The notes: a model not told the origin generated them from the sequence alone. A stretch of DNA of 64,000 bases from a virus (IMGVR_UViG_3300027601_000004), one strand, 5' to 3'. Shown: positions 725 to 60,852, numbered from the stretch's first letter. A program made the numbers and translations.

Positions 725-1378
725 ATGAAACTTATTAGAGAAGTTACAGAATCCGTTAATGTCATTACTGAGAGCAAACTCGGTAAAGGTAAACAATATT
801 ATATTGAAGGTGTTTTCCTTCAATCAGATTTAACAAACCGTAATAATCGCACTTATCCAGAACAGATTATGGATAAAGAAGTTGCTCGTTATATGGAGCA
901 ATGCGTTAAACAAAATCGTGCATATGGCGAACTAGGTCATCCAGATTCACCATCTATTAATTTAGATCGTGTATCACATTTAATTGTTGACTTACGCAAA
1001 GAAGGTACGAACTATATCGGTAAAGCAAAGATTTTAGAAACTCCAATGGGTCAAATCGCCAGAGGTCTTTTAGATGGTGGTGCAAACTTAGGAGTATCTT
1101 CAAGAGCACTTGGTTCTCTACAAATGAACAAAGAGGGTGTTCAAGTGGTTCAGGATGACTTTATGCTGTCTACTGCAGCAGACATCGTTGCTGACCCATC
1201 CGCTCCAGATGCTTTCGTCCGTGGTATTATGGAAAGCAGAGAGTGGGTATTCGTTGATGGAAAGTTTGTGGAAAAGCAGATTGATGAAGTTAAATCTTTT
1301 ATTAGAAAAACTTCGTCCCGTAATCTAGAGGAAGCCAAGCTACGTGCTTTCCAAGATTTTCTGACTAAAATCAGATAA
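725..1378 (+). CDS. 21: Prohead core protease (T4 gp21 family).
   Basis: YIEGVFLQSDLTNRNNRTYP, GELGHP, GVSSRALGSL and DPSAPDAFV match T4 gp21 blocks; position is upstream of scaffold and MCP. Confidence 0.93.
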   Translation: MKLIREVTESVNVITESKLGKGKQYYIEGVFLQSDLTNRNNRTYPEQIMDKEVARYMEQCVKQNRAYGELGHPDSPSINLDRVSHLIVDLRKEGTNYIGKAKILETPMGQIARGLLDGGANLGVSSRALGSLQMNKEGVQVVQDDFMLSTAADIVADPSAPDAFVRGIMESREWVFVDGKFVEKQIDEVKSFIRKTSSRNLEEAKLRAFQDFLTKIR

Positions 1379-2436: not shown

Positions 2437-3708
2437 ATGAATCGTCAAGATTTACTAAAAAAATGGGCACCGATTCTAGAATCTGAATCTGCTCCAAAAA
2501 TCGCTGACAACTATCGTAAAGAAGTTACAGCAGTTCTATTAGAGAACCAAGAGCGTGAGATGGCTAAGCAATCTGAAGCTCTTTTCGAAGCAGTTCCAGC
2601 TAACGCTGGTGGTACTGGTGTTGCTCTAGGTGGCGCAGGTACTAACGCTAACATGGCAGGCTACGATCCAGTATTGATCGCTTTAGTTCGTCGTGCAGCT
2701 CCACAATTAATCGCTTATGACATCGCTGGCGTTCAGCCAATGACTCAGCCAACTGGTTTGATCTTCGCAATGAAGAGCAAGTATACTAGCCAAGCTGGCG
2801 CAGAAGCATTGTTCAACGAAGCCGATACTGACTTCTCTGGTACAGGTACTCACGCTGGTTCTAACCCAGTTGATGGTACTTACACTACTGGTACTGGTAT
2901 CACTACTGCTAACGCAGAAGATCTAGGTGGCGCAACTGCTTTCAATCAAATGGCTTTCTCAATCGAGAAGACAACTGTAACTGCACAAACTCGTGCTTTG
3001 AAAGCAGAATACACTGTTGAACTTGCACAAGACTTGAAAGCAGTTCATGGTCTTGATGCTGAAGGCGAATTGAGCAACATTCTTTCTTCAGAAATCCAAG
3101 CTGAAATTAACCGTGAAGTTGTACGTACTGTATACGCTGCTGCTAAAGTTGGCGCAGAAGTAAACACTGCAACTGCTGGTACTTTCGACATGGACGTTGA
3201 CTCAAATGGTCGTTGGTCTGTTGAGAAATTCAAAGGTTTGATGTTCCAAATCGAACGTGAAGCCAATGCGATTGCTCAGACTACTCGTCGTGGTCGTGGT
3301 AACTTCATCATCTGCTCAAGCGATGTTGCATCAGCACTAGCAATGGCAGGTGTTCTAGACTATACTCCAGCACTTGCTGGCAACAATGGTCTGAACGTTG
3401 ATGAGTCATCTACTACTTTCGCAGGTGTTCTAAACGGTAAGTACAAAGTGTATGTTGACCCATATTCTGCTAACCAATCAGCAAGCCAGTTCTTCGTTGT
3501 TGGTTACAAGGGTTCTTCAGCATTTGATGCTGGTCTATTCTACTGCCCATACGTTCCATTACAAATGGTTCGTGCAGTTGACCCATCAACTTTCCAACCT
3601 AAGATTGGTTTCAAGACTCGTTACGGTATGGTTGCAAACCCATTCACTAGCTTGTCTTCTGGCACTAACATCTACTACCGTAAGGTAAAAGTAACTAACT
3701 TGATGTAA
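2437..3708 (+). CDS. 23: Major capsid protein (T4 gp23 family).
   Basis: DPVLIALVRRAAPQLIAYDIAGVQPM, ELAQDLKAVHGLDAEGELS, GNFIICSSDVASALA and FQPKIGFKTRYGMVANPF are close matches to T4 gp23. Confidence 0.97.
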   Translation: MNRQDLLKKWAPILESESAPKIADNYRKEVTAVLLENQEREMAKQSEALFEAVPANAGGTGVALGGAGTNANMAGYDPVLIALVRRAAPQLIAYDIAGVQPMTQPTGLIFAMKSKYTSQAGAEALFNEADTDFSGTGTHAGSNPVDGTYTTGTGITTANAEDLGGATAFNQMAFSIEKTTVTAQTRALKAEYTVELAQDLKAVHGLDAEGELSNILSSEIQAEINREVVRTVYAAAKVGAEVNTATAGTFDMDVDSNGRWSVEKFKGLMFQIEREANAIAQTTRRGRGNFIICSSDVASALAMAGVLDYTPALAGNNGLNVDESSTTFAGVLNGKYKVYVDPYSANQSASQFFVVGYKGSSAFDAGLFYCPYVPLQMVRAVDPSTFQPKIGFKTRYGMVANPFTSLSSGTNIYYRKVKVTNLM

Positions 3709-6785: not shown

Positions 6786-6878
6786 TCCTTTCTTTCAAAC
6801 CCCACACCGAAAGTTTACATGTTTTCAAAATAAATGTAAAATAATTTTTATATTGCAGAAATTGCAATGAAATAAAAC

Positions 6879-6907
6879 TTTACATTTATGACAAATTGTA
6901 GTATACT
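6879..6907 (+). promoter_or_regulatory. Early sigma70-type promoter (TTTACA-17-TATACT) upstream of gp55.
   Basis: Exact 17-nt spacer. AT-rich inverted repeats (ATTGCA..TGCAAT) lie immediately upstream. Confidence 0.6.
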
Positions 6908-34828: not shown

Positions 34829-36130
34829 ATGACAGTTAAAGTTATTGTCGCTGATAAAAAGATTGATTGTAAACATTTGATTGGTCAATTCGTTGACGAG
34901 AATCATTACGACCATCTTATCGAAGAAGATACTGATGTTTATATGCCAGCACCTTATGGTGAAGATCCTATCAATGAAGACAGGATTGTATTGAAGTTCC
35001 GTAAGAACTTCTTCACCAAAGAACAACAAGACCAAGCGTATGCAGGTCTTCGTGAAGCTGCAACTGAAACACAGAATCGTGGCGCAGCAGCAGGTCCACG
35101 TGGTGAGAAGTTGGGTAATCGTGAATGGGTTACTGAGTATGAATCTGAGATGGTTGAATACTTCCTTGACCCATACTCTGGTCTTGCAGGAGATCCTGTA
35201 GAAGATATTATCAAACGCTATAAGGGTAAACCACCTACTCCATCTAATCGCAATAATGTTTGGTCGATTGAAAGAACTAAGTCAACCAATTTTAATTTCG
35301 ATCAGTGGGTTGAGAAAGTGCGTACACTTCCACGACAAGAACAAATTAAAGAAGCAAACTTTGTTGCTGATGAATTGATTTGTGCAACCACTTACGCTAA
35401 CTCAGTTTATTCTGGCATCGCAGGTTGGTTCGATCGTTATCCTCGCATTCCTTATGGTCGTGCAACATCTTACACTGCCAAGAATCCTGAGAAGTTTGCA
35501 CTTGCTTACCCATTCCTACAAACATTGTCAAATGGTTTTAGGGATCTACTACCACAGCGTTATGAAGCACAGATGAAAGCAGCGAGACAAGTTGATCCTC
35601 GTTTCCTAGTTCCTGGAACTCCATTCACAACTGTTACTGTGAATAAAACATTCAGAACTGCTGCTCACTATGACGTTGGCGATTTAAATAGTGGTCTTTC
35701 AAATCTACTAACTTTGTCAAATGATGGACGTTACAGTGGTGGTTATTTGATTGCACCTGAGTATCGTGTTGCTGTTAATCCACGTCCAGGCGACTTGCTA
35801 TTGATTAACAACCATGATGTTATGCATGGCAACACTCCTATCGTTTGTGAAGAAGGTTCTGAGCGTATCAGTTTGGTTTGCTACTTCCGTGAGAAGATGC
35901 TTGAGTTGGGTTCTTGGGAATATGAGAACTGTCGTTATGACTTCGTTGAACAACGTCGCAAGAATCCTGAACATCCGATGCAACGTAAACTTTGGAATGG
36001 TGTTTCCGAAGGTATGTGGACTTCTGACGAGTGGTACGACTATTGTCGTGAAAAACTTGGAGATGAAATCCTAATTAAATATCATCCAGAATCAATGAAG
36101 TCTGGATCACTTGATGAATTTTTTGCGTAA
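34829..36130 (+). CDS. 2OG-Fe(II) dioxygenase; TET/JBP-like candidate for nucleic-acid base oxidation.
   Basis: HYD (HxD), then HGNT about 57 aa later, then RISLV (RxS) 10 aa after that: a classic DSBH facial triad plus 2OG-binding Arg. Confidence 0.55.
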   Translation: MTVKVIVADKKIDCKHLIGQFVDENHYDHLIEEDTDVYMPAPYGEDPINEDRIVLKFRKNFFTKEQQDQAYAGLREAATETQNRGAAAGPRGEKLGNREWVTEYESEMVEYFLDPYSGLAGDPVEDIIKRYKGKPPTPSNRNNVWSIERTKSTNFNFDQWVEKVRTLPRQEQIKEANFVADELICATTYANSVYSGIAGWFDRYPRIPYGRATSYTAKNPEKFALAYPFLQTLSNGFRDLLPQRYEAQMKAARQVDPRFLVPGTPFTTVTVNKTFRTAAHYDVGDLNSGLSNLLTLSNDGRYSGGYLIAPEYRVAVNPRPGDLLLINNHDVMHGNTPIVCEEGSERISLVCYFREKMLELGSWEYENCRYDFVEQRRKNPEHPMQRKLWNGVSEGMWTSDEWYDYCREKLGDEILIKYHPESMKSGSLDEFFA

Positions 36131-39155: not shown

Positions 39156-39163
39156 TATAAATA
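39156..39163 (+). promoter_or_regulatory. TATAAATA late-promoter-like box upstream of the His-rich gene array.
   Basis: Exact T4 late-promoter octamer about 115 nt upstream of 39271/39280. Confidence 0.35.
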
Positions 39164-39231: not shown

Positions 39232-39260
39232 TTTACTTTATTGTAAAAGTAGGGTATAAT
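39232..39260 (+). promoter_or_regulatory. Early promoter TTTACT-17-TATAAT with a TGCTTTA MotA-box-like sequence.
   Basis: Exact 17-nt spacer and consensus -10. Confidence 0.6.
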
Positions 39261-39270
39261 AACTGTATAG

Positions 39271-40473
39271 ATGGGTAAAATGAAGTCGTTCCAAACATTC
39301 CTTAAAGAAGAAACCGAAGAAGAGAAACTGAAGCACATCCATCATGTAGAGGATCGCCCTCTATTCCATGGTTCTTCAGGGTTCGAACATGCTCTTGGTG
39401 CACTAAACCATGGACATGAACACATTAAAGCTGGGAAACAATCCAGCGATCTGACCATGAAATATGACGGATCGCCATCATTGGTTTTTGGAAAGCATCC
39501 AGAAACTGGAAAATTCTTTGTTGCTTCCAAGTCAGCGTTCAATAAAAACCCAAAAATCAACTATACTGCTAAGGACATTGACAAGAACCATGGTCATGCT
39601 CCAGGTCTCGCAGAAAAATTAAAGCATGCTCTAAAACATCTACCAAAGGTTGCACCTAAGCAAGGTGTATATCAGGGTGACGTTATGCACTCTGAGGGTG
39701 ATGTTAAATATGATGAGAAGAAGGGAACTGCTTCTTATACACCAAATACAATTAAGTATACTGCGCATGGCGATGAAGCCAAGAAAACAGCCCAATCTAA
39801 ATTTGGGTTAGTTGTTCACCAAAAATATGAGGGTAAAGATTTTGCTTCGATGAAAGCAACTCCTCATCCTGATATGAAAAGTTTTGGTCAACACAAAGAT
39901 GTGCATCTTGCTGGTGCCGAGCATGATACTAGCAAAGTTAAATATACTCAAGCAGATCAGAAAAGATTCCAAAGCCACATGAATGCTGCAAAAGATATTC
40001 ATGATAAACACGGCGATAAGATGTATGGTGCGATCCATCCAGAACACAAAGGTGATGCTGGACATTTGGGAACTTACATCAATCAAACAGTTCGCAAAGA
40101 TACAAAACCAAACGCAAAAGGATTCATTAAACATATTCAGGATGTTTATGAAAAGAAAGCGTCTAAACTAAAGTCTGAGAAGGGACAAACTGCTCAGCGT
40201 AATCTTGGTTCTGGTCACGCTGCGCATGTTGAGAAAAATAAAGAGCATTATGAGAATCTATTTAAAATGCATCAGCATTTACAGCAAGGTAAAAACCTTT
40301 TAGTTAAGAATTTAAACCAGCATACTGGCGGTCTTGAGCATCATATTGGAGATAAGAAAACAGATCCTGAGGGATATGTTATAAATTATACGCACAAAGG
40401 TAAACAAGAACCATCTAAAATTGTTAATCGTGCAGAATTCAGTAAAGCCAACTTATTAAAGCCAAGAAAATGA
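39271..40473 (+). CDS. His/Lys-rich paralog 1, with a degenerate nucleotidyltransferase-like motif. The second ATG at 39280 (MKSFQTF) is probably the true start.
   Basis: The N-terminus MKSFQTFLKEE is shared with the next two genes; KYDGSPSL block; 17% His+Lys; low complexity. Confidence 0.6.
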   Translation: MGKMKSFQTFLKEETEEEKLKHIHHVEDRPLFHGSSGFEHALGALNHGHEHIKAGKQSSDLTMKYDGSPSLVFGKHPETGKFFVASKSAFNKNPKINYTAKDIDKNHGHAPGLAEKLKHALKHLPKVAPKQGVYQGDVMHSEGDVKYDEKKGTASYTPNTIKYTAHGDEAKKTAQSKFGLVVHQKYEGKDFASMKATPHPDMKSFGQHKDVHLAGAEHDTSKVKYTQADQKRFQSHMNAAKDIHDKHGDKMYGAIHPEHKGDAGHLGTYINQTVRKDTKPNAKGFIKHIQDVYEKKASKLKSEKGQTAQRNLGSGHAAHVEKNKEHYENLFKMHQHLQQGKNLLVKNLNQHTGGLEHHIGDKKTDPEGYVINYTHKGKQEPSKIVNRAEFSKANLLKPRK

Positions 40474-41084
40474 AGACATTTAAATCTTATATTGTAGAAT
40501 CAGAAAAAGACGTTCATCATGTTCTTGCTTTTGGTCGAATGAATCCTCCAACTGCTGGTCATGAGAAACTCGTAACCCATATGCATGATACTGCCAAGAA
40601 ACATAATGCAGAACATACATTGGTATTATCAGGTTCGCATGCAACTAAAGACGGATCTAATCCATTACCACCTGATGTTAAAAAGAAACATGCAGAGAGA
40701 GCATTTCCTGGAACCAATGTTAAGGTAGCTGATAAAGAACATCCTACTGTTCTTCATCATGCTGCTGAGTTGCACAAAAAAGGTGTTACTCATTTACACT
40801 TTGCTGGTGGCGATGATCGTAAACCAATGCATGAATTGATTAAAAAGTATAATGGAAAAGAAGGTCCACATGGACATTACAATTTCAAGAGTATAAAGTT
40901 CCACAATGCAGGTAAACGTGATCCAAATGCAAAAGGAACTGAAGGTATTTCTGGAACTAAACTTCGTGGTCACGCTGCAGCTGGTGAACAGAAAAAGTTT
41001 GAATCTCATCTATCGTCACAGATGAAACCAGAACATAAAACAGAATTGTATCACGACTTACGTAAACATATGGGTGTAAAGTAA
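40470..41084 (+). CDS. His/Lys-rich paralog 2; HIGH-signature nucleotidyltransferase-like (cytidylyl-/adenylyltransferase superfamily).
   Basis: VLAFGRMNPPTAGHEKLV is a (T/H)xGH motif preceded by FGR.NP; a C-terminal ISGTKLRG resembles the ISxTxxR motif of NMNAT/PPAT-type enzymes. Confidence 0.55.
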   Translation: MKTFKSYIVESEKDVHHVLAFGRMNPPTAGHEKLVTHMHDTAKKHNAEHTLVLSGSHATKDGSNPLPPDVKKKHAERAFPGTNVKVADKEHPTVLHHAAELHKKGVTHLHFAGGDDRKPMHELIKKYNGKEGPHGHYNFKSIKFHNAGKRDPNAKGTEGISGTKLRGHAAAGEQKKFESHLSSQMKPEHKTELYHDLRKHMGVK

Positions 41085-42130
41085 TGAAAAATTTTAAATC
41101 GTTCTTAGCAGAAGAACAATACTACGAAGAATTGCTTATCGAAGCAGCTGATGATGCTTCCAAAGAGGGTGGTGTTTCCAATAACACTAAAGGTGTGTTG
41201 CACGAACTATTAGTCGGCAAACATTTAAATGGTGGTAAGCATCTAGAGAAACACAAGAATGAAAACGATGAAACACCTGAGCAAGCACACGAGAGATTAA
41301 AGAAACAAATTCACCCTAAAGATTATGATAAGATCGCTAAAAATGCAGAGAGTGCTGCCAATCATATTAAGGCACATATCGATTCTACTCACAAAGGGCA
41401 TAAGATTTCAGCAGTGCATTGGACTTCAAAACCTGGAGATACAGAAAAGGTAACTGGTCACAAAGCAACACAGAAAGAAGATTCTTCTGACGTTTATGTA
41501 ACTACCAAGCATCCAAAGACAGGTAAAGAACATCATCATGGCGTAAGTTTAAAAGTCAGCGATAAGTCCAGTAAAAACATTCCGTCTTCAAGTCTTGGTA
41601 TGGAATCTGGTGGTTCAAAAGCCAGACAGCATTATAAAGATCATCAAGACGCAATACTTGCTGCTCATCCTAAATTAAAAGGTAAGAATAAAGACCAGCG
41701 TAAAGAAATTGCAAAAGCAGATCCTAAGTTGCATGATGATATTAAGAAACGCAACAAAGAACTTTTACATAAAGTTGCTCACGATCATGCTGCTGAGTTG
41801 CAGCACCACTTAGACAACAATAACCACGACCATGTAGTTAAACATATTCGTGAAGTTCTACATGCACATAAGACTCCTGCAGAAGAAAAGGGGCACAGTT
41901 TTATTAAGCATACAACATATCAAACTGCTAAGGGTGTTCAACACCATACAAGTAAGCCAAGCGAAGACCACGAACATATCCTTAAAGACCATAAGAATAT
42001 TACAGTTAAATCCAGTGGTGGCTCTGTTCACTTCTATCACAATGGTAAGAAGTTTGCTTCTCAAGCCCATAAGTTCGACTCTCAATCTGATCCATTAAGT
42101 TCATTAAAGAGTGCAGGTAAAGCTGTATGA
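41084..42130 (+). CDS. His/Lys-rich paralog 3; degenerate motif (NNTKGVLHELLV).
   Basis: N-terminus MKNFKSFLAEE; very His-rich (HHHG, HDHAAELQHHLDNNNHDHVVKH). Confidence 0.55.
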   Translation: MKNFKSFLAEEQYYEELLIEAADDASKEGGVSNNTKGVLHELLVGKHLNGGKHLEKHKNENDETPEQAHERLKKQIHPKDYDKIAKNAESAANHIKAHIDSTHKGHKISAVHWTSKPGDTEKVTGHKATQKEDSSDVYVTTKHPKTGKEHHHGVSLKVSDKSSKNIPSSSLGMESGGSKARQHYKDHQDAILAAHPKLKGKNKDQRKEIAKADPKLHDDIKKRNKELLHKVAHDHAAELQHHLDNNNHDHVVKHIREVLHAHKTPAEEKGHSFIKHTTYQTAKGVQHHTSKPSEDHEHILKDHKNITVKSSGGSVHFYHNGKKFASQAHKFDSQSDPLSSLKSAGKAV

Positions 42131-42474
42131 AAAAGTTAATACTGATTCTTGCCGTAGTTTCTTTATCTGCATGTTCTGTTATCCTACCAAGACCACACGA
42201 CCCAGAAATGTTTGGTCGTTTAGTTGATACCAAAATAGCAGTTGATAAATTAGAATGTGGTAATCAGTTAATGTTCCAAAACGCAGACGAGTATATCGAG
42301 AGATTAAAAGTTTATGCTGTTTTAAGATCTGACCCACAAGCAGAAGCTATTGGAAAATTGCAAGAAGCTATCAAGAAAGCAGGAGAATCCAAGAACAAAG
42401 TATTCTGCGAATCTGTTGTTAAAACAAATAAAGTTAGAATCGATGTAATAGTAGATGCTTGGAAAGGAAGATAA
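42127..42474 (+). CDS. Lipoprotein (115 aa).
   Basis: Signal peptide with lipobox LSAC. Confidence 0.5.
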   Translation: MKKLILILAVVSLSACSVILPRPHDPEMFGRLVDTKIAVDKLECGNQLMFQNADEYIERLKVYAVLRSDPQAEAIGKLQEAIKKAGESKNKVFCESVVKTNKVRIDVIVDAWKGR

Positions 42475-42662
42475 TGACTACATTTACAACTGAAGATAGA
42501 TTAGTAGCAGAAGCACCTTATCATCCAGGATATGAATCTATAGGATTAGAAGAAATTAAGAATCCAATTATGGATGAGGTAAATGAATATCGTGCATATA
42601 AAGCACGACATATGAAAACTGCCAAAGGTATTGTTGAATTTTTAAGGGGTCCAAGATGCTAG
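42459..42662 (+). CDS. Small hypothetical (67 aa).
   Basis: ORF. Confidence 0.3.
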   Translation: MERKIMTTFTTEDRLVAEAPYHPGYESIGLEEIKNPIMDEVNEYRAYKARHMKTAKGIVEFLRGPRC

Positions 42663-42886
42663 AACAATTAAGAGAAGCAGCAGGAATGGGTGGTCCAGCA
42701 GCAGCATTGGCGAACGAGTTATTGGTTATTCGTGAAAATTATGAACAGGGACAGCTATCCAAAGAAGAATATGAGTATTTGGTCAATGAAATCGCTGAAA
42801 TTCGTGCCCAACAGGAGTTAGCCACAGACGAGGTAGCCTGTCGTTGGATCGTTGCAGCAGCAAAAGCGTTAATTAGCGTGGCATAA
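42656..42886 (+). CDS. Small hypothetical (76 aa).
   Basis: ORF. Confidence 0.3.
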   Translation: MLEQLREAAGMGGPAAALANELLVIRENYEQGQLSKEEYEYLVNEIAEIRAQQELATDEVACRWIVAAAKALISVA

Positions 42887-42929
42887 TTGCCTAAATAAAT
42901 GAATAGAAATTACTTTATAGATGGATTAA

Positions 42930-44810
42930 ATGAAAGATTACAGACAACTAATCAAAGAACTACCGTCCAGTACTATTGTTTGTGCAGTTAGCGAGTTTAA
43001 CCCTCCTACAATCGGTCACGAACTACTAGTCAAGACAGTCAAAAAACTGGCAGAACAAAAAAATTCTGACCACGTAATCTATACATCCCCATCTAAGAAC
43101 AGTATTATCCAAGAAGATAAGAAAGAACATTATCTAAATTTAATGTTCCCAAATACTTCTTTTAAAAGTATCACATCTTTATCGGAAACGATTAAAGATT
43201 TGTCGCAGAAGTATAAACATGTTGTATTGGTTGTCGGCAGCGAACAATCAGCCAGCTTGAAAAAAATTGTTAAAGAATCAAGTTCCATTCAGATTATTTC
43301 TACTTTAGATAAAGACCCAGATGTAAATTCTTCAAAGATGAAATCTTTTGCTACTAAAGGAATTTTTGAAGAGTTTAAGAAAAAGTTGCCAAGTTCTGTT
43401 CGTGAGTTAGATGGTCGTCGTTTGATGAACGATGTCCGTATTACGATGGGTTTAGAACCAATTAAAGAGCAGCTTAATTTGGTCAAAGATACTGTACGTG
43501 AACAATATTTCCGTGGTGAAATTTTTAATGTCGGAGATATCGTTGAATGTAGTGGAGAAAAATTAGCAGTAGTTAAACGTGGCTCAAACCATTTACTACT
43601 TAAAGAAGCTAGTGGCAAATTAGTTTCTAAATGGATACAAGACGTAATACCAACGGAAGAAAAAGAAATGAACGAAGACTTAACAGATAAGACTTTAAAA
43701 ACCAACGATAAGATTAAAGTTGCTCGAGTAATCGCAACTATGCTTGGTGTGGATAAAGTTGAGGCAACTGCAAACGCTGAGTTGCTTGTTAATACTGCAC
43801 TACGCAGAATCAAATCCAAGACTTTGAATCCAGAAGCATTGAACATTGTTAATAAGATGTTACAACTGGCTAACCAAGTTGGTATTCAATATGACACAAA
43901 TTTAATTCCACAGAAACTTACTCAAGAAGAAACTTCTTTGGATGAAGCAACTCCATATTATAATAAACCTTCTTTCATCAAGAGAATGTCTCGCATGGCG
44001 AAACAAGAAAGACAGGAACGTGAGAAAAAAGAAAAAGAACAGAAGAAAGATGTAAAAGAGAATCACTGCAAACCTGGACATAGTTTAGTTGAACCAGGAG
44101 CATCTGAAACTTTACGCAAACAAAAAATTAAACAACAATTGGGTGAAGTAGCTCCAGTTGATGTGAGCAAAGTTAATCATGCTGGCGATGAACCACATGA
44201 TGAAGAATGGGAAGATACTGGTATTTGTCCAGTACACAACGTAAAGCATGGCGAAGAAGGATGTGAACACACTAGAGATGTGTTAGAAAAAGAATTAGAT
44301 CTTACTGATGAAGAAATCGATCACATTATTAATACTACACCAGATGATGAATTCATCGATGAGTATGAAGATGATGAGTTTGGTATTATCGATCCAGATA
44401 CTGGCGAAGAATATGACGATGAAGAATGTGCTTGCACAATGCAAGAGCAAGCAATTCTGGAAGTTCTTTCAAGAACAGAACGTATGCGTGCAAGAGTTCG
44501 TTTTGCAAAATCTAAGGCTAAGCGTGAACGTAAAGCATCCATCGCATTAAGAACTCGTGCCACCACTAAGACTACAAACAAACGTGCACGTCGTCTTGCA
44601 ATTAAGTTAATGAAGAAACGTCTACTCCGTGGTCGTGACTATAACAAACTTTCAGTTGGAGAGAAAGAGCGTGTAGAAAGAGTTATTCAAAGACGCAAAC
44701 AAGTTATCGGTCGTGTAGCAATGAAACTTGTTCCACGTATTCGTGCTGTTGAGAAAGCAAGATTATCACATACAAAATATACTAAAGGATCTGGAAATGT
44801 TGCGTTTTAA
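42930..44810 (+). CDS. Large paralog 4: N-terminal HIGH-signature nucleotidyltransferase-like domain, an acidic middle region, and a strongly basic Arg/Lys C-terminus.
   Basis: VSEFNPPTIGHELLV in the same architecture as paralog 2; the C-terminal 150 aa is about 35% R/K; a CTAAATA sequence lies 35 nt upstream. Confidence 0.55.
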   Translation: MKDYRQLIKELPSSTIVCAVSEFNPPTIGHELLVKTVKKLAEQKNSDHVIYTSPSKNSIIQEDKKEHYLNLMFPNTSFKSITSLSETIKDLSQKYKHVVLVVGSEQSASLKKIVKESSSIQIISTLDKDPDVNSSKMKSFATKGIFEEFKKKLPSSVRELDGRRLMNDVRITMGLEPIKEQLNLVKDTVREQYFRGEIFNVGDIVECSGEKLAVVKRGSNHLLLKEASGKLVSKWIQDVIPTEEKEMNEDLTDKTLKTNDKIKVARVIATMLGVDKVEATANAELLVNTALRRIKSKTLNPEALNIVNKMLQLANQVGIQYDTNLIPQKLTQEETSLDEATPYYNKPSFIKRMSRMAKQERQEREKKEKEQKKDVKENHCKPGHSLVEPGASETLRKQKIKQQLGEVAPVDVSKVNHAGDEPHDEEWEDTGICPVHNVKHGEEGCEHTRDVLEKELDLTDEEIDHIINTTPDDEFIDEYEDDEFGIIDPDTGEEYDDEECACTMQEQAILEVLSRTERMRARVRFAKSKAKRERKASIALRTRATTKTTNKRARRLAIKLMKKRLLRGRDYNKLSVGEKERVERVIQRRKQVIGRVAMKLVPRIRAVEKARLSHTKYTKGSGNVAF

Positions 44811-45294
44811 AGATTACCTTACAGAAGATAATGCCAAACATGATGAGGCAGAAGAGCATTTATCAAAAGCCAATGACGCTGAATCTAAAGGTGATATGAA
44901 GTCATTTCATGCACACATGGCGGATCATCATGATGCTATGTCCGAGTGGCATGAGTCGAAGGGTCGTTCGGCATCAGCAGACAAGCATGCTGAAAAGGCA
45001 GATGAACACCATGAAAAATCTTTAACTGTTAAAGAAGCAGCTGTTGATGCAAAAGGATTTAAATCTTCAACTGGTGGCTTGACACAAAAGGGTCGAGATC
45101 ATTATAACAGAACAGAGGGTGGCAATCTTAAAGCACCTGTAACAACACCACCATCAAAATTAAAAGCTGGTAGCAAAGCTGCCAATCGTCGCAAGTCTTT
45201 CTGTGCCAGAATGTCTGGCGTAGAAGGACCAATGAAGAAGCCAAATGGCGAGCCAACTCGTAAAGCATTGGCATTAAGAAAATGGAATTGTTAA
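44797..45294 (+). CDS. His-rich basic protein (165 aa).
   Basis: ATG with an AAAGGA RBS in the +1 frame at the end of the previous gene; HAHMADHHDAMSEWHE. Confidence 0.45.
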   Translation: MLRFKDYLTEDNAKHDEAEEHLSKANDAESKGDMKSFHAHMADHHDAMSEWHESKGRSASADKHAEKADEHHEKSLTVKEAAVDAKGFKSSTGGLTQKGRDHYNRTEGGNLKAPVTTPPSKLKAGSKAANRRKSFCARMSGVEGPMKKPNGEPTRKALALRKWNC

Positions 45295-45295
45295 T

Positions 45296-45742
45296 ATGAA
45301 TGAAACTTTAGTTACTGCGAAAATTTGCTTAGCAAATACATTCTTAATGTATTTTAAGGCACAATCTTATCATTGGAACTTGGAAGGGATGTTCTTTCCA
45401 CAGTATCATGAATTTTTTGGCAATCTTTATGAAGAAATTTATGGAGCAGTTGATCCAATGGCAGAAGAGATGCGTGCGCTTGATGAGTATGCTCCAAAGA
45501 ATATAGAAGAAATGTATAAAGTTACAACTATCGATAATGATAATAACGCTAGTAATGTAACTGAAATGCTGCAAGATTTACAAGAAGCCAACAATAAAAC
45601 CATCGAGAGCCTAAATAAACTGTTCGATCTATTATCGAAAGACAAAGAGCAGGGTTTTGCTGATTTTATTGCTGGAAGATTGGATGCTCACAAGAAACAT
45701 GGTTGGATGATACGTTCCAGCTTAAAGAAAATTGGAGAATAA
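45296..45742 (+). CDS. dps: Dps / ferritin-like protein.
   Basis: FLMYFKAQSYHWNLEGMFFPQYHEFFGNLYEEIYGAVDPMAEEMRAL carries the Dps ferroxidase-site spacing (HW..G..F..H.......E....D...E); the C-terminal HKKHGWMIRS is typical. Confidence 0.65.
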   Translation: MNETLVTAKICLANTFLMYFKAQSYHWNLEGMFFPQYHEFFGNLYEEIYGAVDPMAEEMRALDEYAPKNIEEMYKVTTIDNDNNASNVTEMLQDLQEANNKTIESLNKLFDLLSKDKEQGFADFIAGRLDAHKKHGWMIRSSLKKIGE

Positions 45743-45745
45743 TAA

Positions 45746-48175
45746 ATGGCAAAAAAGAAATTTGCAGATTTAGCCAGTGCTTGCTGGAAAGGCTATAAAG
45801 CAGTTGGTTTAAAGGATAAGAATGGAAGAAAAGTTCCTAACTGTGTTCCTGAAGAAACAGAAGTAGCTGACGATATTATCGAAGCTAGAGTGTTTGCAAC
45901 TTATCAAGATGCGAAAGCTGCTGCAGCACCTGGACAAAAACCTAAGTTGAACCCATCAAATAACAAGTATATTTTAGTTTCTGAAGAAACTATTGACGAA
46001 GAAGATGATTACTCTAGACGTCATACTGTAGTTGCTCATGTTTCTGATAATACTGGAACTCCTGCTGATGGTGAGAAGCGTGAAGTTATAAAGAAAGCAC
46101 TATCTATATTGGCAGCAACTCCAAAGCATGCAGAGCGTGCTGCAAGAAAACATTTCTCTGACAAAGGATATAAAGTTCATAAAATCTCAGCGAAATTAAA
46201 AGAAGAAGTTGAGTTAGAAGAAGCCACAGTAAGCAAGAAAGATTATTCTTGGGGTAAGATGATGACTGTTCATCACGGCAAAGATATTTCTTATCCTCTA
46301 CATCCAGAACACCAAAAGATTGTTAAGGGTTTACGACCAAGTGGTGAACATTCGAAGGCTATGTATAAAGATGAAACTGGTAATCAAGTTCATGTAACAC
46401 GTGAAGATGACAAAGTTCATTTTGTTTCTCACAGAACATCAGGCAGTAAGAAAACTACTGTTGATTACAAACACTTTGATGAATCAGTTCCAGCAAAGAA
46501 CACTGACATTGCCGATAAGAGTTATTTAAAAGATATGGGTAAGAAACCATCTATCAAATCAGATTTGAAAAACTTTAAGAACTTCTTGACAGGTAAGAAA
46601 GAAACCAACGAAGAAGTTGAAATAGAAGAAGCTAGTCAAACTTGGAATCATGCTAAGGTCAAAAAGAATACAGTTCACGGTACATATCATTCATCTTCAA
46701 TGGATGTTTATGGTAATATGACTGCGCATAAAAAAGGTTTCAAAACTTCTAAAGAAGCTGACGATCACGGAAAGAGTATTACTGGTAAACGCACTAAAGC
46801 GTATCATCCTGGAGAAAGAACTCGTGCAGTTTATGTTGATGAGTCAGTTGAACAAGTGGTGGAAGCAGCACCATTCAAAACTAAAGAAGATGCTGTGAAG
46901 TATGCTAAAGAAAAAGTTAAAACCCATCGTGACAATCTTGATGGTATTGAGATTTATGCTCATAGTGGTGGCTTTGATGTTAACCACACTATGAACGCTA
47001 GTGGTCGCAACTCTCTACAAAAGATTAAAGCAAAACATATTGGAACTATCTACAAAGAAGAAGTTGAAATGGAAGAAGGTTACTACCAAAAGCCAGCATC
47101 TGCTTATCGTCGTAAAGGTGACGAGATTGGTGGTGGTTCTTCTAAGAATAGTGTTCCATTTGATGGTCCATATACAAAGACTAAACCTGTTAAAAACTCA
47201 GATGGCACTACTCAATCACCAATGAGTCGTGCACGTGAACTTGCTAAACAAGCTATTGCTGCAAAGAGTAAAATCAAAGAAGACGTTGTTGATGAACAAG
47301 CTCCAGTTGCTCCAGTTCCAGATAAGAAGTATATCAAAGGAACACCTGAGAATAAAGCATACAAAGCAACTAAGAAACCAATCAATGGTCATCCAACTAA
47401 TAAGGTGTCCTGCGAAGAAGTTGAACAGATCGATGAATTAGATCAGAAAACTTTAAAGTCATATGTTAGAAAGAATTTAAAGTCTGGCGATACTAGTGAT
47501 AAAAGAGATGCGGGGTTGTACACGGCAACCAATAAGATTGCCAAAAAACAAGCAACATCAACTCTCGATAAAAAAGTTAAAACCCTTGGTCAGACAAGAC
47601 CTAGTGAAGTGAAAAACCGATATGAATATGAAGCATCTCGTTCTGAATTGAAGAACAGAGGTATTCATCATTTCGCAGGTCGCAGAACTAGAACTGAAGA
47701 AGTCGAACAAGTTGACGAGAAAGCACCTCCAGGATTTGAGGGTACTGTTAAAGCAATGAAGAAGCATAAAGAAATTGATAATCCTTTTGCTCTTGCATGG
47801 TATATGAAGAATAAGGGTATGAAGAGTCATAAAGAAGAAGTGGAACAATTTGACGATAACGGAGAGGTAATAACTAACATGAAAACATATAAAGAGTTTG
47901 TAGAATCTCTTGATGAGGTTAAAATGGCTGACTTACCAGTACGTAAAGTGAGTGGTCGTGGTTATGGTACTGAGTATTATAAGGGTGAAGCCGAAGCAGA
48001 CAAAAAAGGTTACGACGATGAAGACAAGCCAGCTAAACCAGCTGCAGAGAAACGTGGTCGTGGTCGTCCAGCAGGTTCTACATCTGGCGCACGTCAGAAG
48101 GGAACTATTGCTAAGAGAAAAGGTAGTGGTGTCGAAATGACAGGCTATCCAGTACACTTGCCTAATTTCAAATAA
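45746..48175 (+). CDS. Lysine-rich 809-aa protein with six periodic EEVExEE/EEVEQxDE motifs and a C-terminal AT-hook (KRGRGRPAGS).
   Basis: Long ORF with an AATAAATGG RBS; 18% Lys; repeats at about aa 150, 290, 435, 555, 650 and 695. Confidence 0.6.
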   Translation: MAKKKFADLASACWKGYKAVGLKDKNGRKVPNCVPEETEVADDIIEARVFATYQDAKAAAAPGQKPKLNPSNNKYILVSEETIDEEDDYSRRHTVVAHVSDNTGTPADGEKREVIKKALSILAATPKHAERAARKHFSDKGYKVHKISAKLKEEVELEEATVSKKDYSWGKMMTVHHGKDISYPLHPEHQKIVKGLRPSGEHSKAMYKDETGNQVHVTREDDKVHFVSHRTSGSKKTTVDYKHFDESVPAKNTDIADKSYLKDMGKKPSIKSDLKNFKNFLTGKKETNEEVEIEEASQTWNHAKVKKNTVHGTYHSSSMDVYGNMTAHKKGFKTSKEADDHGKSITGKRTKAYHPGERTRAVYVDESVEQVVEAAPFKTKEDAVKYAKEKVKTHRDNLDGIEIYAHSGGFDVNHTMNASGRNSLQKIKAKHIGTIYKEEVEMEEGYYQKPASAYRRKGDEIGGGSSKNSVPFDGPYTKTKPVKNSDGTTQSPMSRARELAKQAIAAKSKIKEDVVDEQAPVAPVPDKKYIKGTPENKAYKATKKPINGHPTNKVSCEEVEQIDELDQKTLKSYVRKNLKSGDTSDKRDAGLYTATNKIAKKQATSTLDKKVKTLGQTRPSEVKNRYEYEASRSELKNRGIHHFAGRRTRTEEVEQVDEKAPPGFEGTVKAMKKHKEIDNPFALAWYMKNKGMKSHKEEVEQFDDNGEVITNMKTYKEFVESLDEVKMADLPVRKVSGRGYGTEYYKGEAEADKKGYDDEDKPAKPAAEKRGRGRPAGSTSGARQKGTIAKRKGSGVEMTGYPVHLPNFK

Positions 48176-48185
48176 GGAGAATAAA

Positions 48186-48455
48186 ATGGCACTATGGGGA
48201 AAAACAGACGCAGCTGGCAGCAAGCCACAATATCTAAACACTGCTGGTAAAGCAGCTGTTGAGGGTATCTCTGCAGCAGAAGCAGCAGTCGCAGCAAACA
48301 AGGCTAAAGGTGTTGCTCATGCAGGCTGGGTAACAACTAATACATACACTGATGCACAAGGTGTAACACGCAACAAGACTGAAGTTCTAGTTGCTATGTC
48401 ATCAATCACTGGTGATGACAACACTGATGATACAACTATCGGTGCTGATGCCTAA
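48186..48455 (+). CDS. Small Ala/Thr-rich protein (89 aa), probably highly expressed.
   Basis: Strong AAGGAG RBS and a strong terminator immediately downstream. Confidence 0.5.
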   Translation: MALWGKTDAAGSKPQYLNTAGKAAVEGISAAEAAVAANKAKGVAHAGWVTTNTYTDAQGVTRNKTEVLVAMSSITGDDNTDDTTIGADA

Positions 48456-48469
48456 TAAATAAATTGGTT

Positions 48470-48494
48470 GAGGGGAGATTCCTCCCCTCCTTTT
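48470..48494 (+). terminator. Rho-independent terminator.
   Basis: GAGGGGAG-ATTC-CTCCCCTC followed by CTTTT. Confidence 0.8.
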
Positions 48495-60255: not shown

Positions 60256-60852
60256 ATGTCAGAAGAAATTAAAGATGTCAATAAAAAGATTGACGAAGCA
60301 GAAGCAGCAGTAAAGAAGTATGCTAGTAAAGATACGGTTATCAGTATTGGTGGATATGAATTTACACCAGCCAAACTGATGGTTGCATTTACATTAGTGT
60401 CTTCATTGCTTGGTGGTCTTTATGGTACGTTTGAAGTCTATAAAGACTACATGAGTATGAAAAAGAAAATTGCTGAGTACGTAACACCTGACTTAACTGA
60501 ACTCTATAAAAAGATGGAAGTGTTAGATGCAAATACTAGCAAGATGACTGAATACACAAACAACATTAAAAACGACTTAAAGAACGATGTTCGTAGAGTT
60601 GAGGGTGTTGTTGAAAACTTAGAGAGATCTACAAAGGCTAGTCTAAGAGATACTGATATTGCTATTAAAGAAATTAAAAAAGACTCTGATTCTACATTGA
60701 AAGAAGTTCGTAGATATAGTGACCAGAGCGTAAAAGAAGTGACACAAGAATTAGTAAAAAATCAAAAAGAAACAACAGCGGAAATCCGTGCGTTGAGAAA
60801 CGAAGTGGACATGAAGATTAAGAAAGCATTGGATAATCCTCTGTCTCAATAA
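60256..60852 (+). CDS. Single-TM coiled-coil protein; tandem paralog A.
   Basis: Shares the ASKDTVISIGGYEFTPAKLMVAFT...KDY..MKKKIAEYV core with the next gene. Confidence 0.5.
   Translation: MSEEIKDVNKKIDEAEAAVKKYASKDTVISIGGYEFTPAKLMVAFTLVSSLLGGLYGTFEVYKDYMSMKKKIAEYVTPDLTELYKKMEVLDANTSKMTEYTNNIKNDLKNDVRRVEGVVENLERSTKASLRDTDIAIKEIKKDSDSTLKEVRRYSDQSVKEVTQELVKNQKETTAEIRALRNEVDMKIKKALDNPLSQ

What the first reader, a model, noticed from the sequence alone, without database searches (positions are those of the whole stretch)
45746..48175. 809-aa polylysine protein with periodic EEVE-x-EE motifs that fit prohead-protease (L/I/V-x-E) cleavage sites, plus a C-terminal AT-hook
Six near-identical acidic motifs (KEEVELEEA, NEEVEIEEA, KEEVEMEEG, CEEVEQIDEL, TEEVEQVDEK, KEEVEQFDDN) punctuate an otherwise very basic, Lys-rich sequence at intervals of roughly 45-145 aa. 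The protein ends with EKRGRGRPAGSTSGARQKG, a canonical GRP AT-hook. Five of the six motifs contain (L/I/M/V)-x-E, the specificity of the T4 gp21 prohead protease that is encoded in this window. One hypothesis is a polyprotein processed inside the prohead into basic DNA-binding internal peptides, analogous to T4 internal proteins and peptides II/VII, co-packaged with the DNA. Alternatively it is a repetitive DNA- or nucleoid-binding protein acting in the host.
Basis: inference. Interest (0 to 1): 0.6.

Follow-up and report, generated by a model that had tools for sequence, protein, structure and literature searches.

The report
Mosaic cargo polyprotein for phage head
This 809-residue protein of a marine T4-like phage is a string of unrelated small modules joined by acidic linkers that look like T4 capsid-targeting leaders ending in a prohead-protease site, so it is probably loaded into the head, cut into pieces and delivered with the DNA.

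Summary
ORF 45746-48175 (+) encodes 809 aa with six exact EEVE motifs (0.036 expected by shuffling) and a conserved KRGRGRPAG AT-hook-like motif. "Polylysine" and "periodic repeat" are wrong: K is 14.6%, pI 9.3, and only the linkers recur.

The protein is a mosaic of at least 10 unrelated modules, which relatives carry in other orders and numbers. Across 254 stored relatives, eight module types all begin right after [LIVMF]-x-E, the T4 gp21 cleavage motif. The same module follows either an internal EEVE-type linker or an N-terminal leader resembling the T4 capsid targeting sequence (MKTYQEFIAE).

Five genes just upstream (39280-45294) carry a strict T4-type leader. These are the only such matches in six frames of the window; in 150 kb of T4 the same rule finds only ipII and ipIII. 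A TATAAATA late promoter heads the cluster here and in distant relatives. Homologues of the neighbours, and a positional counterpart that shares only the 25-residue N-terminal motif (S-SZBM1_139), were detected in published cyanophage virion proteomes.

The parts
45746..48175 (+). ORF of the 809-aa mosaic protein (stop codon included)
   Evidence: There are 422 word-indexed homologues and 2377 representative clusters at E<=1e-3. No Pfam, NCBIfam or PDB sequence match.
45782..45850 (+). N-terminal CWKGY...VPNCVP module (aa 13-35). It is the only part with hits in cultured phages.
   Evidence: phrog_9737 E 8e-10. tblastn hits in 66 Synechococcus/cyanophage records. Present in the virion-detected proteins S-SZBM1_139 and S-CREM2 gp160.
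45866..45883 (+). Junction ADDIIE|A (aa 41-46). In relatives the next module (ARVFATYQDA...) is preceded by the N-terminal leader MKSFKELIGGLEE|A.
45971..46000 (+). Junction ILVSE|ETIDE|EDDY (aa 76-85). It is a homology break in relatives.
46202..46228 (+). Linker 1, EEVELEE|AT (aa 153-161)
   Evidence: Predicted pLDDT is below 50 at aa 149-158, between two predicted folded domains.
46223..46480 (+). Module M1 core (aa 160-245; YSWG..TVHHG..PLHPEH), predicted to be a beta-rich folded domain
   Evidence: AlphaFold2 pLDDT 82-88. Found in 83 of 120 stored homologues. In relatives it follows MKNFKELIAQLAE|AQVS at the N-terminus.
46610..46636 (+). Linker 2, EEVEIEE|AS (aa 289-297)
46841..46867 (+). 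Degenerate linker 3, ESVEQVVE|A (aa 366-374), aligned with EEVEQVME|AAPFK in relatives
47057..47083 (+). Linker 4, EEVEMEE|GY (aa 438-446)
   Evidence: 32 of 33 contexts have hydrophobic-x-E|G before this module
47267..47296 (+). Junction KIKE|DVVDE|QAPVAPVP (aa 508-517)
47414..47440 (+). Linker 5, EEVEQIDE|L (aa 557-565)
   Evidence: 23 of 23 contexts
47696..47722 (+). Linker 6, EEVEQVDE|K (aa 651-659)
   Evidence: 24 of 26 contexts
47834..47860 (+). Linker 7, EEVEQFDDN (aa 697-705). It has Asp in place of the cleavable Glu and starts the conserved C-terminal module.
   Evidence: In T4 an Asp at the P1 position blocks processing but not targeting (PMC9026906).
47879..47917 (+). Internal near-copy of the T4 capsid targeting sequence, MKTYKEFVESLDE (aa 712-724). 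T4 IPII/IPIII have MKTYQEFIAE.
   Evidence: The only 7-mer within 1 mismatch of MKTYQEF in six frames of the window. Conserved as [MV]K[ST]YKEF[VL].SL.E in the C-terminal module of relatives.
48050..48076 (+). AT-hook-like KRGRGRPAG (aa 769-777)
   Evidence: Invariant in the 20-sequence alignment. Found in the last 90 aa of 174 of 254 stored relatives.
39156..39163 (+). TATAAATA, a T4-type late promoter ahead of the cluster
   Evidence: One of only two exact copies on the + strand of the window, and both are intergenic. Conserved before the first cluster gene in L004, Melnitz, S-CREM2 and L010, and 38 nt before the leader-bearing NMNAT-like gene in L019/L020.
39280..40473 (+). DUF6267 gene with leader MKSFQTFLKE
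40470..41084 (+). Cytidylyltransferase/NMNAT-like gene with leader MKTFKSYIVE|S
   Evidence: It is homologous to the virion proteins S-CREM2 gp154 and S-SZBM1_140.
41084..42130 (+). His/Lys-rich gene with leader MKNFKSFLAE
42930..44810 (+). 626-aa gene, cytidylyltransferase-like at its N-terminus, with leader MKDYRQLIKE
44797..45294 (+). DUF6321 gene, with its likely true start at MLRFKDYLTE
45296..45742 (+). Dps/ferritin-like gene immediately upstream. It has no leader and is always the left neighbour of the mosaic gene.
48186..48455 (+). Short homologue of the N-terminus of virion structural proteins (MALWG...). It is always the right neighbour of the mosaic gene.
   Evidence: phrog_613. Similar to S-SZBM1_136, Melnitz_23 and S-PM2 d145.
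48470..48493 (+). Hairpin plus T-run; probable end of the transcription unit
725..1378 (+). Prohead protease (T4 gp21 family), the proposed processing enzyme
   Evidence: Peptidase_S77, E 3.9e-38
2581..2589 (+). L-F-E (aa 49-51) of the major capsid protein, at the position of the T4 gp23 maturation site (FLTE|A)
   Evidence: Melnitz FLSE|A, HTVC008M FLGE|I

Best explanation
The gene encodes a concatenated cargo protein for the inside of the phage head. It belongs to a late-transcribed cluster (39156 to about 48490) whose products carry T4-type capsid-targeting leaders.

The 809-aa protein strings together at least 10 unrelated small modules. Each module is preceded by an acidic linker, (K/N)-E-E-V-E-x(0-1)-hydrophobic-x-E, that takes the place of such a leader. 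The conserved C-terminal module holds a near-copy of the T4 leader (MKTYKEF) and an AT-hook-like motif.

Inferred steps:
1. The protein is built into the scaffolding core of the prohead.
2. The gp21-type S77 protease (725-1378) cuts after the Glu of each hydrophobic-x-E. This releases pieces of about 4-16 kDa, mostly neutral to basic, and at least one is a folded beta domain.
3. The pieces stay with the packaged AT-rich DNA, the last one through its GRP motif.
4. They enter the host with the DNA, as T4 internal proteins do.

What the individual modules do in the host is unknown. The conserved linkers also act as joints at which modules are swapped among related phages, so the cargo set is hypervariable.

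Shown here: the motif statistics, the mosaic structure, the junction rule, the equivalence of leader and linker, the clustered leaders, the conserved late promoter, the synteny, and the published virion detection of homologues. Inferred: packaging, cleavage, DNA binding and delivery of this protein.
For: 1. Junction rule. Eight unrelated module types are each preceded at a fixed offset by [LIVMF]-x-E in 51-100% of distinct contexts. The background is 2.4% per position. P1' is mostly A or G, as at T4 sites.

2. Leader and linker are interchangeable. Module M1 follows KEEVELEE|ATVS in the target and MKNFKELIAQLAE|AQVS at the N-terminus of relatives. Module M0b follows ADDIIE|ARVF in the target and MKSFKELIGGLEE|ARLF elsewhere. 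About 78 of 120 relatives start with a T4-leader-like sequence.

3. In the target, all 15 [LIVM]-x-E sites lie at junctions. None of the 29 Glu inside modules has LIVM at P3 (P about 0.007 from composition).

4. A strict rule taken from the T4 leader (M1, aromatic 4, hydrophobic 7, aliphatic 8, E10; residue roles from PMC9026906) matches five places in six frames of the window. All five are consecutive gene starts at 39280-44797. In 150 kb of T4 the rule matches only ipII and ipIII.

5. TATAAATA lies just upstream of the cluster in the window and in L004, L010, Melnitz, S-CREM2 and L019/L020.

6. The S77 protease is present. The gp23 maturation site keeps L-x-E|A in this clade.

7. Virion mass spectrometry in cultured relatives. 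S-CREM2 gp154 (leader MKNFSSFLTE|A; homologue of 40470, E 2e-19) and gp155, gp156 and gp160 were detected. S-SZBM1_140 (homologue of 40470) and S-SZBM1_139 were detected; the latter sits at the target's position and has a CWKGY motif 60% identical over 25 aa. NMNAT-like proteins were also found in S-SCSM1 and S-CBWM1 virions (PMC10665884, PMC9146016, PMC9602691).

8. Modules are gained, lost and reordered between genomes whose flanks are 81-89% identical, and the breaks fall at the linkers.

9. The linker at aa 149-158 and most of the chain are predicted to be disordered and therefore accessible.

10. All 16 IMG/VR loci that carry the C-terminal module lie in the same T4-like syntenic slot.
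Against: - There is no direct evidence for this protein: no proteome, no cleavage assay, and no cultured phage that carries modules M1-M7.
- Its own N-terminus (MAKKKFADLASACWKGY) fails the strict leader rule. Targeting would have to rely on internal linkers or on the internal MKTYKEF, and T4 leaders have only been shown to work at the N-terminus.
- EEVE is more conserved than the protease tripeptide. This suggests a second, unexplained constraint.
- Hydrophobic-x-E next to acidic runs could simply reflect an amphipathic acidic helix. Glu is concentrated in the linkers, so part of the enrichment is compositional, and the junction windows in the depletion test were defined after the fact.
- A crude family-wide depletion test was not discriminating: 22% of Glu outside EE.E windows have LIVM at P3, against 16.6% expected.
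- Several predicted pieces are not basic (pI 5.7-7.7).
- The structure model rests on a shallow 20-sequence alignment (mean pLDDT 47).
- S-SZBM1_139 shares only the short N-terminal motif with the target.
- The virion proteomes cited cannot distinguish capsid interior from co-purifying protein.
Confidence: 0.5

Rival explanations
1. The protein is packaged in the virion but stays in one piece, or is trimmed only at its ends. It would be a beads-on-a-string ejection protein of the 'polyvalent' type, in which the acidic EEVE segments are flexible spacers or charge-balancing helices rather than cleavage sites.
For: - The context and the virion evidence are the same as for the main model.
- EEVE is more conserved than the protease tripeptide.
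- Linker 7 has Asp at the would-be P1 position.
- Polyvalent head proteins with many domains are known (PMC5512222).
Against: - Hydrophobic-x-E at a fixed offset before eight unrelated modules survives even where EEVE is lost: LKE|G, ITE|A, KLDE|K.
- N-terminal leaders that are cleaved in T4 occupy the same position.
- There is no hydrophobic-x-E inside the modules of the target.
Confidence: 0.2
2. It is a non-virion protein made in the infected cell that binds DNA or the nucleoid through its basic segments and the AT-hook. The leader-like sequences would have another role or none.
For: - The KRGRGRPAG motif is conserved.
- Net charge is +29.
- A Dps-like DNA-binding gene lies next door.
- A sigma70-like promoter at 39232-39260 could give early expression.
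- The target lacks a strict N-terminal leader.
Against: - The late promoter is conserved across distant relatives.
- Homologues of the cluster neighbours and the positional counterpart are found in CsCl-purified virions.
- This reading does not explain why every module starts after a protease-type tripeptide, or why leaders and linkers interchange.
Confidence: 0.15
3. It is an accessory core or scaffold component, like T4 gp67/gp68/gp22. It would be assembled into the prohead core, cut at hydrophobic-x-E and expelled before DNA packaging, so nothing is delivered to the host.
For: - T4 core proteins are cut at many L/I-x-E sites into small peptides and are partly acidic (sequences; PMC5694885).
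- The linkers are acidic and disordered.
Against: - The module content varies between near-identical genomes, which fits poorly with a structural assembly role.
- A separate conserved scaffold gene (T4_CASP) is present.
- The EEVE seen in the gp22 of the window and of T4 is absent from Melnitz and HTVC008M gp22, so no shared scaffold motif exists.
- The conserved AT-hook suggests retention with the DNA.
Confidence: 0.1
4. The motif recurrence is chance or a low-complexity or gene-calling artefact.
For: The sequence is rich in Glu and Lys.
Against: - 0.036 EEVE are expected and six are observed.
- The ORF and the motif are conserved in hundreds of homologues.
- An identical protein is on record in public assemblies (P0001).
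Confidence: 0.01

Closest known systems
T4 internal proteins IPI, IPII and IPIII with their capsid targeting sequence (Mullaney and Black 1996; reviews PMC9026906, PMC3012670)
   Same: - The leader pattern is the same: MK-x-aromatic-x-x-hydrophobic-aliphatic-x-E, followed by A/S. It is found on five neighbouring genes and on most relatives.
- A gp21-family protease is encoded in the same genome.
- The gene content is diverse, fast-evolving and non-essential-looking.
- Homologues of the neighbours are found in virions.
- The target carries MKTYKEF, against MKTYQEF in T4.
   Different: - There is no sequence homology to the mature IPs.
- The target has no strict N-terminal leader.
- Leader-like elements are internal and repeated, joining at least 10 modules in one 90-kDa chain, whereas T4 IPs are single small proteins of about 10-21 kDa.
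- The cargo in this cluster includes enzymes (NMNAT-like, DUF6267).
- Cleavage and packaging have not been shown here.
Polyvalent proteins of phages and conjugative elements (Iyer, Burroughs, Anand, de Souza, Aravind 2017; PMC5512222)
   Same: - Many unrelated modules sit in one polypeptide.
- The gene context is late or packaging-related.
- Delivery with the DNA is proposed.
- Processing into separate units is proposed.
- Domain shuffling is extensive.
   Different: - No MuF, zincin-like metallopeptidase or any of the listed effector domains is present; Pfam finds nothing.
- Processing would be done in trans by the prohead protease at conserved linkers, not by an embedded peptidase.
- The modules are small (40-136 aa) and mostly predicted to be disordered.
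- T4-like marine phages are not treated in that paper: 'cyanophage' and 'Synechococcus' occur zero times in it.
T4 prohead core proteins gp22, gp67 and gp68, and internal peptides II/VII
   Same: Multiple L/I-x-E sites in one chain, acidic stretches, and small peptide products.
   Different: - There is no homology; T4_CASP is a separate gene at 1421-2413.
- The composition is hypervariable.
- The chain carries a conserved DNA-binding-type motif.
AT-hook DNA-binding motif (HMGA type)
   Same: An R-G-R-P core preceded by K-R-G; strongly conserved.
   Different: The residues after GRP are A-G-S rather than basic. There is a single copy. DNA binding has not been tested.

Membership tests
T4-type capsid-targeted internal proteins (CTS cargo) | N-terminal leader MKTYQEFIAE-like: aromatic at position 4, hydrophobic at 7 (targeting), aliphatic at 8 and Glu at 10 (processing) | tested here: not met
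   The target starts MAKKKFADLASA and fails the strict rule. The rule is met by five neighbouring genes (39280, 40470, 41084, 42930, 44797) and, in a looser form, by about 78 of 120 relatives.
T4-type capsid-targeted internal proteins (CTS cargo) | A leader-like element anywhere in the chain | tested here: met
   MKTYKEFVE at aa 712-720 has 1 mismatch to MKTYQEF and is unique in six frames. The linkers occupy the position of N-terminal leaders in relatives.
T4-type capsid-targeted internal proteins (CTS cargo) | A gp21-family prohead protease in the same genome, with conserved specificity | tested here: met
   Peptidase_S77, E 3.9e-38. The gp23 site is LFE|A, against T4 LTE|A. The specificity itself is inferred, not measured.
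T4-type capsid-targeted internal proteins (CTS cargo) | Presence in mature heads and cleavage after Glu | not testable with these tools
   The evidence is indirect only: homologues of the neighbours, and S-SZBM1_139 at the same genomic position, are in virion proteomes.
T4-type capsid-targeted internal proteins (CTS cargo) | Sequence homology to IPI, IPII or IPIII | tested here: not met
   tblastn against 50,697 phage records returned only cyanophage hits to aa 5-145.
Polyvalent proteins (PMC5512222) | 2-15 distinct domains in one polypeptide, shuffled among relatives, in a late or packaging context | tested here: met
   modules unrelated to each other; late promoter
Polyvalent proteins (PMC5512222) | Signature domains (MuF, zincin-like MPTase, ART, DarB-type helicase/methylase and others) | tested here: not met
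   No Pfam or NCBIfam family matches and no PDB sequence matches. Fold searches were uninformative.
AT-hook proteins | A G-R-P core flanked by basic residues | tested here: inconclusive
   In KRGRGRPAGS the N-terminal flank is basic and the C-terminal flank is not. The motif is highly conserved. DNA binding is untested.
Tandem-repeat protein | Repeat units similar to each other | tested here: not met
   An all-against-all comparison of the modules matches only the first 7-11 linker residues.
T4 scaffold (T4_CASP / gp22) | Pfam PF25623 match | tested here: not met
   The target has no Pfam hit. PF25623 matches the separate gene at 1421-2413.

The most novel reading that the evidence does not exclude
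The T4 system of capsid-targeting leader plus gp21 cleavage is ancestral and widespread in marine T4-like phages (Kyanoviridae and relatives). There it serves as a universal adaptor. Any module, whether an enzyme such as the NMNAT-like and DUF6267 proteins or a small peptide, becomes head cargo by acquiring the leader.

Leaders placed internally let many cargoes be concatenated into one polyprotein that the prohead protease unpacks. Recombination at the conserved linkers then produces a combinatorial, hypervariable set of injected effectors, probably directed against host defences. This would be a natural counterpart of the engineered T4 protein-packaging system.
Probability: 0.35. Interest if true: 0.8.

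Novelty: new variant of a known kind. Interest (0 to 1): 0.62.

Why it matters
If the reading is right, three things follow.

1. It would explain why NMNAT/cytidylyltransferase-like enzymes keep turning up in cyanophage virion proteomes. The authors of those studies noted this without a mechanism.
2. It would extend the T4 capsid-targeting and gp21 cargo system, so far documented for T-even phages, to the abundant marine T4-like phages.
3. It would describe a new architecture: a cargo polyprotein whose linkers serve at once as targeting-leader derivatives, protease sites and recombination joints.

It also gives a simple sequence rule for predicting which proteins these uncultured phages inject. 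Existing mass-spectrometry data could test that rule.

Tried and rejected
- **Close DNA relatives.** Megablast of 38000-62000 against 50,697 phage records found none.
- **Named families and folds.** Pfam, NCBIfam, the PDB sequence search, and Foldseek against PDB and BFVD gave no informative match for the target. The best PDB E-value was 0.27, and the BFVD top hits are unannotated relatives.
- **DNA-level signal.** The idea was that EEVE is conserved as a recombination or regulatory site in the DNA. The seven linkers use GAA/GAG and GTT/GTC/GTG in line with the gene's codon bias, so the constraint is on the amino acids.
- **Scaffold mimicry.** The gp22 of the window (VVEEEVEAV) and of T4 (AEEEVEKN) both contain EEVE, but Melnitz and HTVC008M gp22 do not. 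This is treated as chance.
- **Tandem repeats of one unit.** Rejected.
- **Family-wide depletion of hydrophobic-x-E outside EE.E windows.** Not discriminating, because many junctions lack EE.E.
- **EEVE itself as the cleavage site.** This reading (P4-P1 = E-E-V-E) was considered and put aside. P3 would be Glu, unlike any known gp21-family site, and junctions without EEVE keep the downstream hydrophobic-x-E.
- **Gap in the T4 control.** It covered 150 of 169 kb; the last 19 kb were not scanned.
Full report
**1. The observation**

The ORF is at 45746..48175 on the + strand. It starts with ATG and encodes 809 aa. Twenty thousand composition-preserving shuffles give a mean of 0.036 copies and never more than 2. 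In the window's called ORFs the full linker-type motif occurs only in this one; a bare EEVE also occurs in the scaffold gene gp22. A seventh, degenerate copy (DESVEQVVEAAP, aa 364-375) aligns with EEVEQVMEAAP in relatives.

Lys is 14.6% and Asp+Glu 15.3%, net charge is +29 and pI is 9.3, so "polylysine" is an overstatement. KRGRGRPAG lies at aa 769-777, not at the very end of the protein. The segments between the motifs are unrelated to one another, and only the first 7-11 linker residues recur. This is not a repeat protein.

**2. The genome**

The window comes from a marine T4-like myovirus. It encodes a Peptidase_S77 prohead protease (725-1378, E 3.9e-38), a T4-type scaffold protein (1421-2413) and Gp23 (2437-3708). 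The major capsid protein is 63-64% identical to those of Methylophilales phage Melnitz, Pelagibacter phage HTVC008M and several cyanomyoviruses. Megablast found no close cultured relative.

**3. The family and its mosaic structure**

The word-indexed search found 422 homologues. The exhaustive search of 1.84 billion representatives found 2377 clusters at E<=1e-3 and 636 at E<=1e-10, with lengths of 112-1181 aa. None has a name or a Pfam domain, except for some that carry a cytidylyltransferase N-terminus.

I cut the target at its linkers and compared each piece with the 120 stored homologues. The same modules occur in different orders, numbers and combinations. Examples are M0-M1-M4-M5-M2-M6-M7 in P0004 and M1-M4-M3-M0-M0-M7 in P0019. 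The C-terminal module M7 is at the C-terminus in 100 of 120.

A fully syntenic relative (L004) has flanks 81-89% identical in DNA, yet whole blocks inside the gene are replaced, and the breaks fall at the linkers. EEVE is the commonest 4-mer in the family. The linker consensus from 141 distinct contexts is [K/N]-E-E-V-E-[Q/L]-[I/E/D/V]-[E/D]-[E/A]. The DNA of the linkers follows the gene's codon bias, so the constraint is on the protein.

**4. The junction rule**

I anchored on the conserved cores of eight unrelated module types and looked at what precedes them in 254 stored relatives. Each type is preceded at a fixed offset by [LIVMF]-x-E:

| Module | Distinct contexts with [LIVMF]-x-E |
|---|---|
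| M3 | 100% |
| M5 | 100% |
| M0b | 100% |
| M4a | 97% |
| M6 | 92% |
| EF-hand-like module | 73% |
| M1 | 57% |
| M4b | 51% |

The background is 2.4% per position. The next residue is mostly A or G. EEVE itself is present at only a minority of these junctions, where variants such as EEQE, EESE, LKE|G and KLDE|K occur.

[L/I]-x-E, with cleavage after the Glu, is the known specificity of T4 gp21 (PMC5694885). In this clade the homologous gp23 maturation site keeps it: window LFE|A, Melnitz LSE|A, HTVC008M LGE|I, T4 LTE|A.

In the target, all 15 [LIVM]-x-E tripeptides lie at junctions. None of the 29 Glu inside modules has LIVM at P3 (P about 0.007 from composition). The junction windows for this test were defined after the fact.

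**5. Linkers and leaders are interchangeable**

The N-termini of relatives fall into two kinds. The first is MAKKF.DLA.ACWKGY, as in the target (18 of 120). The second resembles the T4 capsid targeting sequence MKTYQEFIAE. That sequence was confirmed from the T4 genome and in 10.1101/2021.01.19.427310. PMC9026906 assigns residues 4 and 7 to targeting and residues 8 and 10 to processing.

The same module is found behind either element. M1 follows KEEVELEE|ATVSKKDYSWG in the target and MKNFKELIAQLAE|AQVSTNKYSWG at the N-terminus of P0019. M0b follows ADDIIE|ARVFATYQDA in the target and MKSFKELIGGLEE|ARLFASYQDA elsewhere. K-E-E-V-E-Q-I-D-E|L also aligns residue for residue with K-E-L-I-A-Q-L-A-E|A. 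The internal linker therefore occupies the place of an N-terminal leader and may derive from one.

The conserved C-terminal module carries MKTYKEFVESLDE (aa 712-724). This is the only 7-mer within one mismatch of MKTYQEF in six frames of the window, and it is conserved as [MV]K[ST]YKEF[VL] in relatives.

**6. The neighbourhood**

I applied a strict rule taken from the T4 data: ^M..[FYW]..[FYLIMW][ILVM].E, with at least 60 aa following. In six frames of the 64-kb window it matches exactly five places, all consecutive gene starts just upstream of the target:

| Start | Gene | Leader |
|---|---|---|
| 39280 | DUF6267 | MKSFQTFLKE |
| 40470 | NMNAT/cytidylyltransferase-like | MKTFKSYIVE |
| 41084 | His/Lys-rich | MKNFKSFLAE |
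| 42930 | cytidylyltransferase-like N-terminus | MKDYRQLIKE |
| 44797 | DUF6321 | MLRFKDYLTE |

As a control, the same scan over 150 kb of T4 matches only ipII and ipIII.

Exact TATAAATA, the T4 late promoter, occurs twice on the + strand of the window. Both copies are intergenic, and one is at 39156, ahead of the cluster. The same motif lies before the first cluster gene in L004, in L010 (the only copy in 22 kb), in Melnitz (the only copy in 19 kb) and in S-CREM2. It also lies 38 nt before the leader-bearing NMNAT-like gene in L019 and L020. A hairpin terminator follows 48186-48455.

The order DUF6267 ... NMNAT-like ... DUF6321 ... Dps-like, mosaic gene, MALWG structural-protein homologue, DUF7207, Thy1, NrdAB holds, so far as each locus extends, in all metagenomic and IMG/VR loci examined.

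**7. Published virion proteomes**

- S-CREM2: cytidylyltransferase ORF154 and ORFs 155, 156 and 160 were detected in CsCl-purified virions (PMC10665884). ORF154 starts MKNFSSFLTE|A and is homologous to 40470 (E 2e-19). ORF160 carries the CW.GY..NCV motif.
- S-SZBM1: cytidylyltransferase S-SZBM1_140 and the adjacent 457-aa S-SZBM1_139 were detected (PMC9146016). S-SZBM1_139 lies at the target's genomic position and shares the CWKGY motif (60% identity over 25 aa).
- PMC9602691 notes that NMNAT-like proteins recur in cyanophage virion proteomes and offers no mechanism.

No paper in the searched library links these proteins to a capsid targeting sequence.

**8. Structure**

AlphaFold2 with a 20-sequence alignment gives a mean pLDDT of 47. 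One confident beta-rich domain covers aa 160-245 (pLDDT 82-88). A moderately confident alpha/beta region covers aa 47-150. 553 of 809 residues score below 50, including linker 1 at aa 149-158. Fold searches found nothing informative.

Cutting after each junction Glu would give eleven pieces of 4.2-15.6 kDa, with pI 5.7-9.8 and net charge -2 to +8. The last piece (aa 725-809, +8) holds the AT-hook-like motif.

**9. Interpretation**

The most economical reading is that the cluster encodes cargo for the head interior, recruited by T4-type leaders. The 809-aa protein would be a concatenated cargo whose leader-derived linkers are cut by the S77 protease. The conserved linkers also serve as joints for module exchange.

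The linkers are not periodic repeats in a polylysine chain. The protease-type tripeptide lies just after EEVE. The pieces are heterogeneous, not uniformly basic DNA-binding peptides.

Weak points remain. The target lacks a strict N-terminal leader. Internal leaders have never been shown to target a protein to the capsid. The invariance of EEVE is not explained by the protease motif alone. Nothing here demonstrates packaging or cleavage.

Rival readings, with rough weights:

| Reading | Weight |
|---|---|
| Packaged but uncut multi-module protein | 0.2 |
| Intracellular DNA-binding protein | 0.15 |
| Expendable core component | 0.1 |
| Artefact | 0.01 |

**10. Comparison with known systems**

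The protein works like T4 internal proteins, but it is not homologous to them and fails the N-terminal leader criterion itself. It resembles the "polyvalent proteins" of Iyer et al. (PMC5512222) in concept, but it has none of their signature domains, and its processing would be done in trans by the prohead protease. I classify it as a new variant of a known kind.

Existing mass-spectrometry data, or a Melnitz virion proteome, could settle the question quickly.

Noticed in passing
window 39280-45294: Five consecutive genes start with a strict T4-type capsid targeting leader: DUF6267, two cytidylyltransferase/NMNAT-like genes, a His/Lys-rich protein and DUF6321. [quoted passage not shown] By eye, DUF6267 contains K-Y-D-G, which resembles motif I of ligase-type nucleotidyltransferases.
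   Followed up: partly
window 34829-36130: A 433-aa protein with a Tet/JBP 2OG-Fe(II) dioxygenase domain (E 3e-24), conserved in the syntenic relatives. It suggests that the phage DNA carries oxidised or hypermodified bases.
   Followed up: no
window 45296-45742: A Dps/ferritin-like gene (Pfam Ferritin 8e-20; PHROG 'DNA binding protein') is always the left neighbour of the mosaic gene inside the late cluster. It has no targeting leader.
   Followed up: no
window 48186-48455 and 48470-48493: An 89-aa ORF is homologous only to the N-terminus of longer virion structural proteins (S-PM2 d145, S-SZBM1_136, Melnitz_23; 333 aa in L011). A hairpin terminator follows it. It is either a truncated or a minimal version of that protein.
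   Followed up: partly
window 42127-42474: A lipoprotein-like ORF (MKKLILILAVVSLSAC...) is embedded in the cargo cluster and conserved in L004 and L011. The 455-nt stretch after it (42475-42929) has no ORF of 80 aa or more.
   Followed up: no
window 39232-39260: A sigma70-like promoter (TTTACT, 17-nt spacer, TATAAT) lies between the late promoter and the first cluster gene and is conserved in L004. The cluster may be expressed both early and late.
   Followed up: no
window 60256-60852 and 60864-61340: Two adjacent paralogous genes share N-terminal halves (...KKIDEAEAAVKKYASKDTVISIGGYEFTPAKLMVAF...).
   Followed up: no
relatives P0002, P0148, P0227, L011 13677-15065 and others: Many family members carry a module with a canonical EF-hand-type loop (KG.QHKIDKNKNG.ID..DF) directly after the leader. 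S-PM2 d142 and Melnitz_21 carry an Asp-rich loop (KDIDNDGD.D.SD). The target has neither.
   Followed up: no
window 1421-2413 (aa ~32-36) and T4 gp22: Both scaffold proteins contain EEEVE, but Melnitz and HTVC008M gp22 do not. Judged to be chance in Glu-rich sequence.
   Followed up: yes
L002 (S-PM2) 6800-6900: The intergenic region upstream of the S-PM2 cluster contains a GC-rich structured stretch (GGAGGG...GGGAGTTCGACTCTCCCTCCCTCC) that looks like a tRNA 3' half. Not examined.
   Followed up: no
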